A stretch of DNA of 64,000 bases, taken from a virus. Lineage: Duplodnaviria; Caudoviricetes. The notes beneath the pieces were generated by a model. The model worked only from the letters and a program-made list of their open reading frames with translations. It had not been told where the DNA came from and searched no databases. Positions 20,420 to 31,587 of the stretch are shown here, in pieces. The stretch lies in IMG/VR virus record IMGVR_UViG_3300032116_000002; one strand, 5' to 3'. The position numbers and the translations under genes were made by a program. Position 1 is the stretch's first letter. Each line of letters opens with the position of its first letter.

Positions 20420-20440
20420 AATTTATCCTTGTATGTTAGT

Positions 20441-20638
20441 GTAAGGCTACTCGCTCCCACAAGCCCCTTACTGAGTTGTTGCCCTGTCCACTACATTTCT
20501 CTTTTGGTAAGGTGTAGTTCCAACCTACGACTTTTCTGGCACCCATGTAAGCGGGTTCTGAGGCAGATCGTATGCGCCCTGGCTTTCTGGTTTGCCAACC
20601 ACCCCCATTTCATAACGCAGATGGGACTACGGGATACT
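20441..20638 (-). ncRNA. Candidate structured RNA A (~200 nt), 5' of ppiC
   Basis: GC-rich non-coding stretch with several stems; shares a 17-nt core and covarying flanking hairpins with RNA B. Confidence 0.65.
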
Positions 20639-29583: not shown

Positions 29584-29667
29584 TGGTGGGGTGTACTGGG
29601 ATCGAACCAGTCATGTCAAAGACGGCGGATTTACAGTCCACTGCATCACCATTGATGCTTCCACCCC
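29584..29667 (-). tRNA. tRNA-Tyr(GUA)
   Basis: Long variable arm, loop CTGTAAA, CCA. Confidence 0.95.
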
Positions 29668-29669
29668 AT

Positions 29670-29875
29670 TTAATGCTCTGACAGACCTCGGAGGTAATTA
29701 TACCGCATCAAGCACCGAGTAGTCTCAGTACCATCACACACGGCCTCCACCCTCTCCACGACAGGTCCCGTTCTCGCATTGCCAGCGCACTTTCGGTTTA
29801 AAGTGTACCACCCGTAGTTGTCATACTACTTCTCATCGTGCGGGTCACACTATCTGCTGACTAAGCAGAACGTTC
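29670..29875 (-). ncRNA. Candidate structured RNA C (~205 nt) between tRNA-Asp and tRNA-Tyr
   Basis: Nested stems TCTGCT/AGCAGA, ACCCG/CGGGT, GTAGT/ACTAC, CACTTT/AAAGTG, GGAGG/CCTCC, CTGAG/CTCGG. Confidence 0.6.
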
Positions 29876-30103: not shown

Positions 30104-30568
30104 TCATCTCACACCCAAATAATGTTTGTTTACATAGCTTTGTATTGCTTGATGACTTACATTACTGATATGCACGCCTGGAGCAACATTACGCCTACCT
30201 GAACTATCAAAGTAATTTCTTGTTTCTATACCATAGACACCATAGTTAACCTGTGCTGTATGATATGCACCAATTGTAACAATAGAGTAGGGCTTATGTT
30301 TTACGTTTTTTAAAACATGTTTAATGCTTTCTGCACCCTTACTATACCCATATAACTGATACTGTTTATTATTTCTATTAATAAACTTTACTGCTAAATG
30401 TGCTTGATTCCAACTATATGTCATTGCACATGCATTCTGCTTTTTTGCATATTGATTAAAGGCACGACTATCAAATAAATCATTGATACCTTTGAAACCA
30501 ATAACGAACTTGTCACAGGCAAAACTGTTCTGTGTTACAAGTAATAAAATAAAAAATAATGTTCTCAT
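30104..30568 (-). CDS. Exported protein, possible minimal alpha/beta hydrolase
   Basis: Signal peptide; GYSKG nucleophile-elbow-like motif. Confidence 0.6.
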   Translation of the reverse strand: MRTLFFILLLVTQNSFACDKFVIGFKGINDLFDSRAFNQYAKKQNACAMTYSWNQAHLAVKFINRNNKQYQLYGYSKGAESIKHVLKNVKHKPYSIVTIGAYHTAQVNYGVYGIETRNYFDSSGRRNVAPGVHISNVSHQAIQSYVNKHYLGVR

Positions 30569-31118
30569 ATTAGTTTTGTAGCCTATACTATATGCCTAAC
30601 TCAACAGCTTTACACGTGTTTACTGTTTATTGTTTCGGTTACATAACGCCTGCGCCAGCCTCTGTGCTTACAGGCTACAAAATTAATATGCTTAGGCCAC
30701 GCTTTTCCACGGTCGCCCCCAAGCTGGAGTTGTTGCCCTGTCCGAACACTAAAGGACCTTTGCCGCGTAGTGTCCACGCTGCTATGTTGTCTGAAACACC
30801 GGAGACACCACATCGAAATGCAGAGTCTATGTTTCGCTAAAGGTGCCATAGCCACCTGGACTTTATCGTATTACCAAACGCTACTTTCAGGAAAGTAGTA
30901 ACCGGAATCTTGCTTCTTTGATTCGGCGAGCTGTCCTACTTCAAGCAGGCTCACACTGGTCGCCCTGAGGTGAAGCACCTCAGTTACTCTAGATTAATAT
31001 TAATGCTAACAAGGACAGGCCTATTACATGATACCGAAGGCATTACTGTATCAAACCCTTGCTAAACTCTTTTCAGAGACAGAACGCACATTTTCTGTTT
31101 TGTTTTTAATCTTCATTT
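30566..31118 (-). ncRNA. Candidate large structured RNA B (~500 nt)
   Basis: Own sigma70 promoter, elevated GC, many hairpins, no credible long ORF, 17-nt core shared with RNA A. Confidence 0.65.
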
Positions 31119-31124
31119 GCCGCT

Positions 31125-31153
31125 AGTATAACAGCAAATCGATTTATTGTCAA
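31125..31153 (-). promoter_or_regulatory. Sigma70-type promoter TTGACA-N17-TATACT
   Basis: Spacer starts ATAAATCG; faces RNA B. Confidence 0.85.
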
Positions 31154-31157
31154 ACTT

Positions 31158-31234
31158 TGGTGCCTGCTCTTGGAATCGAACCAAGCACCCCCGCGTTATC
31201 AACACGGTGCTCTAACCGAATGAGCTAAGCAGGC
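31158..31234 (-). tRNA. tRNA-Ile(GAU)
   Basis: Loop TTGATAA, CCA. Confidence 0.95.
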
Positions 31235-31238
31235 AAAC

Positions 31239-31314
31239 TGGCACACCCAACCGGATTCGAACCGGTGTATTCACCGTGAAAGGGTGATGTCCTAGGCCTC
31301 TAGACGATGGGTGC
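31239..31314 (-). tRNA. tRNA-Glu(UUC)
   Basis: Loop CTTTCAC, G73, CCA. Confidence 0.95.
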
Positions 31315-31348
31315 GTAAAACTGTTAAAGAACTAAAAATAATTCAGAC

Positions 31349-31377
31349 ATTTTATCTCGTTTTGGATTTAATGTCAA
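31349..31377 (-). promoter_or_regulatory. Sigma70-type promoter TTGACA-N17-TAAAAT
   Basis: Read directly; faces tRNA-Glu/Ile. Confidence 0.8.
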
Positions 31378-31386
31378 GTTGTTGTT

Positions 31387-31462
31387 TGGTGGAGGTGACA
31401 GGGATCGAACCTGCGACCTACGGCTTGCAAAGCCGCCGCTCTCCCAACTGAGCTACACCCCC
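31387..31462 (-). tRNA. tRNA-Ala(UGC)
   Basis: G3:U70, loop TTTGCAA, CCA. Confidence 0.96.
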
Positions 31463-31472
31463 AAATTAAATC

Positions 31473-31549
31473 TGGCCTGACCAGAGGGATTCGAACCCCC
31501 GACTTACTGCTTAGAAGGCAGTTACTCTATCCAACTGAGTTATGGTCAG
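31473..31549 (-). tRNA. tRNA-Arg(UCU)
   Basis: Loop CTTCTAA, CCA. Confidence 0.95.
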
Positions 31550-31558
31550 AAAGTAATG

Positions 31559-31587
31559 ATTGTACTATAACTGCGATTATTTGTCAA
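31559..31587 (-). promoter_or_regulatory. Sigma70-type promoter TTGACA-N17-TACAAT
   Basis: Immediately 5' of the first tRNA of the array. Confidence 0.85.

What the first reader, a model, noticed from the sequence alone, without database searches (positions are those of the whole stretch)
30566..31153. Candidate ~500-nt ornate non-coding RNA with its own promoter
Seen: a TTGACA-N17-TATACT promoter faces about 550 nt that is more GC-rich than neighbouring genes and has dense hairpins (CUGAGGUG/CACCUCAG 30965-30983, CUACUUU/AAAGUAG 30881-30898, AGGUG/CACCU, CGAAA/UUUCG, CCUGC/GUAGG inside GAGC/GCUC). Only a 21-codon ORF at the 5' end and two implausible overlapping ORFs are present. Established: giant phage ncRNAs such as GOLLD and ROOL occur in tRNA arrays and have no assigned function. 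Inference: a member or relative of such classes, or a new one.
Basis: partly seen in the sequence, partly recalled or inferred. Interest (0 to 1): 0.65.

Follow-up and report, generated by a model that had tools for sequence, protein, structure and literature searches.

The report
Chain of phage tRNA-operon RNA cassettes
The flagged stretch is real non-coding RNA, but it is a row of four independently shuffled folded RNA cassettes in a phage tRNA operon rather than one giant RNA, and its 219-base core belongs to a well-conserved, uncatalogued RNA family whose function is unknown.

Summary
The promoter, the raised G+C and the lack of coding are confirmed, on the minus strand, co-oriented with all the window's tRNA genes. 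The about 550 nt are not one ornate RNA. Relatives show four cassettes that recombine independently:
- L1, 30998-31109
- L2, 30908-30997
- core "type A" RNA, 30689-30907
- module E, 30566-30688

Type A has 56 distinct variants of 183-220 nt in uncultured phage contigs. It occurs once per complete phage genome, always on the tRNA strand, and often within 1-10 nt of a tRNA. Its fold is seven helices plus a hairpin-loop pseudoknot: 91% of cells pair against 34-43% in slid controls, and 22 pairs carry compensatory changes. An invariant unpaired 17-mer and the 3' hairpin are shared with a shorter paralogue at 20439-20637.

Module E has a covarying 20-bp closing helix and a loop palindrome that stays a palindrome while its sequence changes, so it is a candidate kissing dimer.

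There is no match to Rfam (GOLLD, ROOL, tmRNA, RNase P), to T4 RNA C/D, to cultured phages or to 185,579 prokaryote genomes.

My best reading is a stable RNA cut out by tRNA-processing enzymes that acts in trans. That part is inferred. This scan had already noted the same and sister families on other DNA.

The parts
31125..31153 (-). Sigma-70-type promoter. The -35 TTGACA is at 31148-31153, the spacer is 17 nt, and the TG-extended -10 TATACT is at 31125-31130. The inferred transcription start is near 31118.
   Evidence: 11 of 12 matches, TG present. Conserved in L001, L004, L005 and L069 although the leader behind it differs. The start site is inferred from spacing only.
30998..31109 (-). Cassette L1. 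A ~110-nt folded module with two small hairpins, then a stem AGCAAGG/CCUUGUU that encloses a GAUAC/GUAUC hairpin.
   Evidence: nhmmer finds it at other places in related arrays, including after the core in L084, L066 and L101. In 16 variants, 8 of 23 predicted pairs show compensatory changes.
30908..30997 (-). Cassette L2. A ~90-nt hairpin-rich spacer that holds CUGAGGUG/CACCUCAG and the nested GAGC/GCUC and CCUGC/GUAGG pairings. It is rare.
   Evidence: Found only in the window's own contig (L160), L069 and L088. One compensatory change, GAGC/GCUC to GAAC/GUUC. Too few relatives to test further.
30689..30907 (-). Core type A RNA, 219 nt, the long-P5 form. Elements:
- P1, tentative: 30900-30906 with 30736-30742
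- P2: 30881-30898
- P3: 30858-30875
- P4: 30841-30857
- P5: 30794-30834
- P6: 30743-30776
- P7: 30690-30724
   Evidence: Model R1 scores 203.3 bits, E 2.7e-50, full length. Alignment A4 of 27 variants: 91.4% of cells pair against 34-43% when slid, 22 pairs have two-sided changes, and 0 of 500 shuffles reach this. An independent metagenome set, A7: 92.9% paired, with 26 of 44 pairs compensatory.
30781..30852 (-). Pseudoknot. The P4 loop GCUAUG (30847-30852) pairs with CAUAGC (30781-30786) and encloses P5.
   Evidence: All 6 pairs form in 27 of 27 variants. U-A changes to G-C in L040, L036, L035 and L034, and to G-U in L171. Over 56 variants the counts are 49 U-A, 6 G-C and 1 G-U.
30727..30743 (-). 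Unpaired 17-mer GGACAGGGCAACAACUC (junction J6/7). One position varies (C/U/A) and G175 is U in L171. It is identical in the paralogue at 20473-20489.
   Evidence: No complement elsewhere in the window. No better-than-shuffle duplex with the 24 phage tRNAs.
30566..30688 (-). Module E, a ~123-nt RNA.
- A 20-bp closing helix: 30669-30688 with 30568-30587.
- An inner 5-bp stem: 30623-30627 with 30603-30607.
- An apical loop with the palindrome CACGUG at 30613-30618.
   Evidence: Alignment A5 of 13 variants: 96.3% paired against 33-47% when slid, and 16 of 25 pairs compensatory. The palindrome changes to CAUAUG, CUCGAG, CCGGCCGG, CUAGCUAG, CCUGCAGG and CCAGCUGG. Module E occurs next to tRNAs without the core in L035 and L016.
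30104..30568 (-). A 154-aa ORF with a signal peptide followed by Cys, and no family match. Its AUG is the last base pair of module E's closing helix, and no Shine-Dalgarno sequence precedes it.
   Evidence: and sequence. Its homologues in L013, L014, L016 and L017 lack the core upstream.
20439..20637 (-). Paralogous type B RNA, ~200 nt, between tRNA-Cys and a parvulin-like ORF. It shares the 17-mer and the 3' hairpin (GGGGC...UAGCC) with type A, but has a different body.
   Evidence: R1 scores 19.6 bits, E 0.001, over 20439-20556. Sequence. The same pairing of one type A with one weak paralogue is seen in whole phage records.

Best explanation
The interval is the non-coding front of one transcription unit in a phage tRNA operon. 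It consists of four self-folding RNA cassettes.

Shown:
- The central 219 nt are a member of an uncatalogued family of 183-220-nt RNAs ("type A").
- Type A is single copy in whole phage genomes of 163-355 kb.
- It is always on the tRNA strand and often sits 1-10 nt from a tRNA on either side.
- It folds into seven helices plus a hairpin-loop pseudoknot.
- It carries an invariant unpaired 17-mer and a 3' hairpin with a GG/URG internal loop and a GGRA-type apical loop. The sister family, type B, shares both.

Inferred:
- The RNA is cut out of the polycistronic transcript by the enzymes that mature the neighbouring tRNAs. RNase P would cut at the 5' end of the downstream tRNA, and 3' trimming of the upstream tRNA would free the other end. 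Here RNase III would probably also cut the 20-bp helix of module E.
- It then accumulates as a stable small RNA, as phage T4's species 1 and 2 RNAs do.
- It acts in trans. The invariant strand and 3' hairpin would be the surface that binds a protein or ribonucleoprotein partner, most plausibly one concerned with translation, tRNA metabolism or host defence against them.

The partner is unknown.

My odds:
- About 45% for a trans-acting partner-binding RNA.
- About 20% for a purely cis-acting processing element.
- About 12% for a self-assembling RNA particle.
- The rest for something else.
For: - **Family and fold:**. There are 56 distinct full-length variants. 91-93% of cells pair against 26-44% in slid controls. 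22-26 pairs have two-sided changes. The pseudoknot covaries.
- **Selection on the RNA rather than the DNA neighbourhood:** the core is 90-97% identical where the adjacent protein is 84% identical.
- **Context:** in 26 of 27 variants the locus holds tRNA genes, and every tRNA there lies on the same strand. L027 reads tRNA-Asn, 1 nt, RNA, 7 nt, tRNA-Tyr.
- **Copy number:** one strong copy per complete phage record, plus one weak paralogue.
- **Recognition surface:** the 17-mer and 3' hairpin are shared by two families whose bodies differ.
- **Not a leader of the next gene:** homologues of the 154-aa ORF exist without the RNA, and the RNA exists without the ORF.
Against: - There are no expression or end-mapping data, so excision and stability are inferred from geometry alone.
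- The invariant strand has no detectable RNA target in the window or among the phage's tRNAs. That leaves only an unidentified protein or host RNA as partner.
- The closing helix P1 is nearly invariant. The few informative sequences disagree: L043 compensates, while L171 and L018 break the pair.
- In this phage the core has no tRNA directly beside it, so its 5' end has no obvious processing site.
- The T4 analogy is by position only, because model R1 does not match T4 RNA C or D.
Confidence: 0.5

Rival explanations
1. Cis-acting punctuation. The cassettes are folding insulators or processing signals. They keep adjacent tRNA precursors from mispairing and give RNase III, RNase E or RNase P defined entry points. 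They have no function once cut out.
For: - The cassettes sit exactly where tRNA spacers sit, and they are shuffled freely among arrays.
- Several cassettes (E, H, F, G) are closed by 12-20-bp helices of the kind RNase III cuts.
- No trans target was found.
Against: - A spacer needs a stable fold, not sequence. Yet long unpaired stretches are invariant over 56 variants and across two families.
- Type A is single copy per genome, not present at every spacer.
- Most tRNA-tRNA junctions in the same arrays do without any cassette.
Confidence: 0.2
2. RNA-only assembly. The cassettes, alone or together, build homo- or hetero-oligomeric RNA particles through kissing loops and tetraloop docking, as GOLLD, ROOL and OLE do.
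For: - Module E's apical loop keeps a perfect 6- or 8-nt palindrome through seven different sequences, and the palindrome cannot fold on itself. This is the signature of a loop-loop homodimer.
- The type A and type B 3' hairpins end in GGRA-type loops.
- GOLLD and ROOL, also from phage tRNA islands, form cages held by kissing loops (PMC12286853).
Against: - The palindrome is in module E, not in the type A core, where no self-complementary loop was found.
- The cassettes are not always together, so an obligatory hetero-complex is unlikely.
- There are no physical data.
Confidence: 0.12
3. One ~500-550-nt ornate RNA, related to GOLLD or ROOL or of a new class.
For: - A single promoter faces the whole 550 nt, and no terminator-like site separates the parts on the transcribed strand.
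- GOLLD also has a variable 5' part and a conserved 3' part.
Against: - No Rfam family scores even E = 10 in the interval.
- The parts occur separately, in other orders, and directly bounded by tRNAs in relatives.
- In L027 the 186-nt core is the entire space between two tRNAs.
Confidence: 0.06
4. A structured 5' leader or riboswitch that controls the downstream 154-aa secreted or lipoprotein-like gene.
For: - The cassettes fill the space between the promoter and the ORF.
- The ORF's AUG is the last pair of module E's 20-bp helix, and no Shine-Dalgarno sequence is present. Translation must therefore depend on what happens to that helix.
Against: - The core and module E are usually followed by a tRNA, not by this ORF.
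- ORF homologues in L013, L014, L016 and L017 have no core upstream.
- No Rfam riboswitch matches.
Confidence: 0.07
5. A decayed protein-coding gene, or chance hairpins in a G+C-rich spacer.
For: - The region contains ORFs of 81 and 82 codons.
- The whole-region folding energy is not better than shuffles.
Against: - Frame-breaking 1-nt indels occur among 97%-identical relatives.
- The ORFs have no Pfam match.
- Compensatory changes occur in 22-26 pairs, and the slid controls collapse.
Confidence: 0.01

Closest known systems
Phage T4 species 1 and species 2 RNAs (rnaC 139 nt, rnaD 119 nt; AF158101 70908-71171)
   Same: - They are small stable RNAs of unknown function.
- They are encoded inside the tRNA gene cluster of a T4-type phage, on the tRNA strand, directly abutting a tRNA.
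- They are released by tRNA-processing enzymes (the last point rests on my own knowledge of the T4 literature).
   Different: - There is no sequence or structure similarity. Model R1 scores 0.6 bits or less on them with filters off.
- rnaC carries a tRNA-type T arm, GGUUCGAAUCC, and rnaD ends in ACCA. Type A has neither.
- Type A is longer and pseudoknotted.
GOLLD and ROOL RNAs (Rfam; cryo-EM nanocages, PMC12286853)
   Same: - They are structured RNAs of phages and prophages, often beside tRNA islands, with no assigned function.
- Kissing loops matter for them, and module E here has a covarying palindromic loop.
   Different: - They are single RNAs of about 580 nt to more than 800 nt. Here the units are 110-220 nt and recombine independently.
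- No Rfam match appears at any threshold tried.
Type B RNA of the same arrays (window 20439-20637). This is probably the ~190-nt pseudoknot family that this scan noted in another genome. It is unpublished as far as I could find.
   Same: - It shares the invariant strand GGACAG.G..AC..CU(C)CAG.
- It shares the 3' hairpin, with the GG/URG internal loop and the GGRA-type loop.
- It has the same genomic setting and one copy per genome.
   Different: The body upstream of the shared module is unrelated in sequence, and R1 scores only 16-31 bits.
Candidate structured RNAs mined from IMG/VR (Fremin and Bhatt 2023, PMC10690425)
   Same: That survey mined the same data source and the same kind of object: 8,495 unnamed candidates. 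The family may be among them.
   Different: This could not be checked, because no supplementary file is held. The paper's text describes only tRNA-like, terminator and gene-leader candidates.

Membership tests
GOLLD RNA | Match to the Rfam covariance model at its gathering score | tested here: not met
   No family other than tRNA reaches gathering in the window. Nothing reaches E = 10 or better in 30400-31300 apart from tRNAs and noise.
GOLLD RNA | One large RNA, often over 800 nt, with a universally conserved 3' domain | tested here: not met
   The conserved unit is 183-220 nt. The flanking parts are separate cassettes.
GOLLD / ROOL | Encoded by phages or prophages, near tRNA islands | tested here: met
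   The window holds 24-28 tRNAs on the same strand and phage proteins. Loci of 26 of 27 variants hold tRNA genes, all on the RNA's strand.
ROOL RNA | Match to the Rfam covariance model | tested here: not met
T4 species 1/2 RNAs | Similarity of sequence and fold to rnaC or rnaD | tested here: not met
   R1 with filters off on AF158101 69500-73500 scores 0.6 and 0 bits over rnaD and rnaC.
T4 species 1/2 RNAs | Position inside a T4-type tRNA cluster, same strand, abutting tRNAs | tested here: met
tmRNA | tRNA-like domain plus tag reading frame, as detected by ARAGORN or the Rfam tmRNA models | tested here: not met
   ARAGORN reports no tmRNA. Rfam reports none.
RNase P RNA | Rfam models, and the P4 pairing between the GAAAGUCC-type and ACAGAA..GGCUUA-type conserved regions | tested here: not met
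   No Rfam hit. AAAGUCCAGG and CUCCAGCUU look similar to those regions, but they are not complementary, and the first varies freely (AUUGUCCCGG in L001) without a partner change.
Riboswitch or leader of the downstream gene | Constant position upstream of one gene family | tested here: not met
   The core is followed by tRNA genes in most loci. Homologues of the ORF lack the core.
Type A tRNA-array RNA (family defined here) | Full-length match to model R1. The 35 strong hits among the first 39 sources score 176-209 bits, and two divergent metagenome members score 151 and 164 bits. | tested here: met
   203.3 bits over 30688-30907. The window sequence was in the seed, so the independent support is the 34 other strong hits and the 26 further full-length metagenome hits plus two hits cut at the 3' end.
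Type A tRNA-array RNA (family defined here) | P4-loop pseudoknot, invariant J6/7 strand, and P7 hairpin with the GG/URG internal loop | tested here: met

The most novel reading that the evidence does not exclude
Large aquatic phages carry, inside their tRNA operons, a toolkit of interchangeable self-folding RNA cassettes that are cut out and work as particles. Type A and type B would use a shared invariant handle to capture a host factor of translation or of tRNA-directed defence. Module E would dimerise through a covarying kissing loop. That would make these arrays operons of functional RNAs rather than just tRNA supplies, and it would give phage T4's 50-year-old orphan RNAs C and D their first functional analogues.
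Probability: 0.15. Interest if true: 0.85.

Novelty: new variant of a known kind. Interest (0 to 1): 0.55.

Why it matters
Stable non-tRNA RNAs in phage tRNA clusters have been known since T4's species 1 and 2 RNAs, and more recently GOLLD and ROOL. None of them has a function.

This locus adds a well-defined and abundant family:
- It has clean boundaries, often set by the flanking tRNAs.
- It has a strongly supported fold with a pseudoknot.
- It is single copy per genome.
- It has an invariant exposed strand shared by two families, which gives a concrete handle for pull-downs and mutagenesis.

The locus also shows that such "ornate" regions can be chains of cassettes that shuffle between phages, which changes how they should be annotated and modelled.

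Finally, module E's palindromic loop, whose sequence changes while its self-complementarity is kept, is a directly testable prediction of RNA dimerisation.

Tried and rejected
- **Rfam.** Scanned at gathering score over the window and at E = 10 or better over the interval. Only tRNAs and noise appeared.
- **Rfam on nine related loci.** Only tRNA appears among the 150 rows shown; 23 lower-scoring rows were not listed.
- **Cultured phages.** blastn of the interval, of its 3' part and of neighbouring genes against 50,697 phage records found nothing. The only hits were at E = 3, inside a coding sequence.
- **tmRNA and RNase P.** Rejected by ARAGORN, by Rfam and by the failed P4 complementarity.
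- **T4 RNA C/D homology.** Rejected by model R1. A few shared heptamers (GUAGCGU, GUUCGGA) are too short to count.
- **Whole-region folding energy.** Not informative, z = -0.99.
- **Antisense target of the 17-mer in the window.** None found.
- **Pairing of the 17-mer with the phage's tRNAs.** No better than shuffles.
- **A 16S rRNA 3'-end mimic.** Dropped, because the shared UAACAA varies in type B.
- **Additional pseudoknots.** A scan of all column pairs found none with support beyond the P4-loop knot.
- **The recurrent GUGUGUUUCAAUAUGGUU before the core.** First read as a possible extended -10 promoter. It is the 3' strand of another cassette's closing helix, with partner CAUAUUGAAGCACA.
- **Prokaryote genomes.** The 20-nt pattern gave six hits. 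All are coding sequences for VFGQGNN, and none matches R1.
- **Mobile repeat (MITE-like) reading.** Rejected for type A, which is single copy per genome. Rejected for module E, whose helix changes sequence wholesale while pairing is kept.
- **Minerva preprint (10.64898/2026.09.22.753630).** It describes an unrelated reverse-transcriptase RNA array.

Full report
**What is at the coordinates.**
- The feature lies on the minus strand, as do all tRNA genes of the window. ARAGORN finds 24 and Rfam finds 27.
- A near-consensus promoter runs from 31153 down to 31125: TTGACA, 17 nt, TG-extended TATACT.
- About 550 nt follow before the AUG at 30568 of a 154-aa ORF.
- G+C is 0.44-0.505 over this stretch, against 0.295-0.37 in the flanking genes.
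- No Rfam family reaches gathering score. Nothing but tRNAs and noise appears even at E = 10.
- ARAGORN finds no tmRNA.
- The whole-region folding energy is unremarkable, z = -0.99, so the sequence alone does not prove structure.
- The window is a phage fragment. It encodes tail-fibre proteins and ribonucleotide reductase by PHROGs, and Hsp70 and HNH endonucleases within the tRNA array.
- It has no DNA-level relative among 50,697 deposited phage records.

**Relatives show the real unit.**
- Five IMG/VR contigs found through the downstream ORF carry the promoter and the last 346 nt at 90-97% identity. The ORF's own protein is only 84% identical, and the 200 nt in between are replaced.
- Single-base indels among these close relatives exclude a reading frame. 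The 81-aa and 82-aa ORFs have no Pfam match.
- Degenerate pattern scans of IMG/VR and of JGI/ENA metagenomes, followed by nhmmer and a covariance model, gave 56 distinct full-length sequences of 183-220 nt, median 188.
- What these share is a core that corresponds to window 30689-30907. I call it type A.

**The fold.** On 27 variants (alignment A4) I tested a structure of seven helices plus a pseudoknot.
- 91.4% of cells form standard pairs, against 34-43% when the 3' partners are slid by 1-3 columns.
- 22 pairs carry changes on both sides, and none of 500 shuffles reaches any measure.
- The metagenome set gives 92.9% paired, with 26 of 44 pairs compensatory. That alignment was fitted to the model, so it leans towards the structure.
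- The pseudoknot joins the P4 loop GCUAUG (30847-30852) to CAUAGC (30781-30786). All six pairs form in every variant. U-A becomes G-C in four A4 sequences (six of the 56) and G-U in one.
- P5 is a variable arm. It is a 41-nt irregular hairpin in this window and an 8-16-nt hairpin, several with GNRA-type loops, in most relatives. Its closing pair is 100% paired with four pair types.
Its CGAAA/UUUCG is not supported.
- The closing helix P1 is almost invariant, and the few informative sequences disagree, so I mark it tentative.
- Between P6 and P7 lies an unpaired strand, GGACAGGGYAACAACUC, that is essentially invariant.

**Context.**
- In 26 of 27 distinct variants the locus holds tRNA genes, and every tRNA there lies on the RNA's strand.
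- In several loci the RNA fills the whole gap between two tRNAs. L027 reads tRNA-Asn, 1 nt, RNA, 7 nt, tRNA-Tyr. L032, L033 and L038 start 2 nt after a tRNA. L042, L021, L023 and L031 end 4-10 nt before one.
- Whole phage records of 355, 214 and 163 kb (100%, 100% and 98% complete) each hold exactly one strong copy. Two of the three also hold one weak paralogue.
- The window has this paralogue at 20439-20637. It has an identical 17-mer and a 3' hairpin of the same design, but a different body.
- The 20-nt core pattern occurs six times in 185,579 prokaryote genomes. All six are coding sequences for the peptide VFGQGNN, and none matches the model.
- In the collections searched, the family is therefore confined to uncultured phage contigs.

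**The rest of the interval is three more cassettes.**
- *Module E (30566-30688).*
  - It is closed by a 20-bp helix, 96% paired. 13 of the 20 pairs have two-sided changes, and the helix sequence is replaced wholesale in L035, L020 and L016.
  - It follows the core in many loci. It also stands beside tRNAs without the core in L035 and L016.
  - Its apical loop holds a perfect palindrome that changes sequence but stays a palindrome: CACGUG, CAUAUG, CUCGAG, CCGGCCGG, CUAGCUAG, CCUGCAGG, CCAGCUGG.
  - A 6-nt palindrome cannot pair within one loop, so a loop-loop homodimer is the simplest reading. This is an inference.
  - The AUG of the 154-aa ORF is the last pair of the closing helix, and there is no Shine-Dalgarno sequence.
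- *Cassette L1 (30998-31109).* It recurs at other array positions, even downstream of the core, and covaries. There are 16 variants, with 8 of 23 pairs compensatory.
- *Cassette L2 (30908-30997).* It is seen only in two relatives besides the window's own contig.
- Related arrays hold further cassettes closed by long helices.

The "ornate 500-nt RNA" is thus a chain of independently shuffled modules behind one promoter.

**How it most likely works.**
- Shown: a single-copy, sequence-constrained, pseudoknotted RNA placed like a tRNA gene.
- Inferred: it is excised by the enzymes that mature its tRNA neighbours, and here probably also by RNase III at module E's helix. It then persists as a stable RNA.
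- Long unpaired stretches are invariant across 56 variants and across two families with different bodies. No RNA target was found in the window or among the phage's tRNAs. I therefore favour binding of a protein or ribonucleoprotein partner in trans, at about 45%.
- Alternatives are a purely cis-acting processing or insulating role (about 20%), a self-assembling RNA particle (about 12%), a leader of the downstream ORF (about 7%), and one large GOLLD-like RNA (about 6%).

**Comparison with what is known.**
- By position and presumed biogenesis, the nearest precedent is T4's species 1 and 2 RNAs. The model does not match them, and type A lacks their tRNA-like T arm and ACCA end.
- GOLLD and ROOL share the setting near tRNA islands and the lack of a function (PMC12286853). 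They do not share size, unity or any detectable similarity.
- A 2023 survey of IMG/VR lists 8,495 unnamed candidates and may include this family.
- Earlier notes of this scan had already flagged the shared 17-mer in this window, a type A plus type B pair in another genome, and a ~190-nt sister family. I re-derived those points here and treat the notes as leads only.

**Verdict.** It is a new, well-supported RNA family of a known general kind, embedded in a modular cassette array. Its function is unknown, and there are concrete, cheap tests.

Noticed in passing
window 29587-29667 (-): A tRNA-Tyr (anticodon GUA, long variable arm) was missed by ARAGORN and by the whole-window Rfam pass. It scores 35.2 bits (gathering 29) when the region is scanned alone. 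The acceptor stem has one mismatch.
   Followed up: partly
window 29668-29875 (-): About 200 nt with G+C up to 0.54 lie between tRNA-Asp and the tRNA-Tyr above. The region has no Rfam match. Similar stretches (GAUGAGAAG..., GGCAAURCGAGAA...) follow tRNAs in L025 and L032. It is probably another RNA cassette family.
   Followed up: partly
window 20439-20637 (-): Type B paralogue between tRNA-Cys and a parvulin-type isomerase ORF. It carries the same 17-mer and the same 3' hairpin design as the core studied here.
   Followed up: partly
window 30566-30590 (-): The start codon of the 154-aa ORF (signal peptide followed by Cys) is the last base pair of a 20-bp helix and has no Shine-Dalgarno sequence. 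Translation may depend on RNase III cutting, or the mRNA may be nearly leaderless.
   Followed up: no
L044 6300-6383, L046, L028, L001 3744-3880, L040 774-917: A cassette H is closed by CAUAUUGAAGCACA...UGUGUUUCAAUAUG. It is inserted before the core in some phages and between the core and module E in others. Further cassettes with long closing helices occur in L032, L036 and L034 (AAGGCAAGUGCUAUAG...) and in L018 and L039 (UUAAUUGUGUUAU...AUAACACAAUUAA).
   Followed up: no
window 31125-31587 (-): Three promoters matching 11 of 12 positions (TTGACA, 17-nt spacer) lie on the minus strand at 31587, 31377 and 31153. Each heads a small group of tRNAs or RNAs, so the array is transcribed in short units as well as by read-through.
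   Followed up: no
L048-L053 (genome contigs): The 20-nt RNA pattern GTGTTCGGACAGGGNAACAAC also encodes the peptide VFGQGNN, and it hits unrelated bacterial protein genes. Pattern hits for this family therefore need confirmation with the model.
   Followed up: yes
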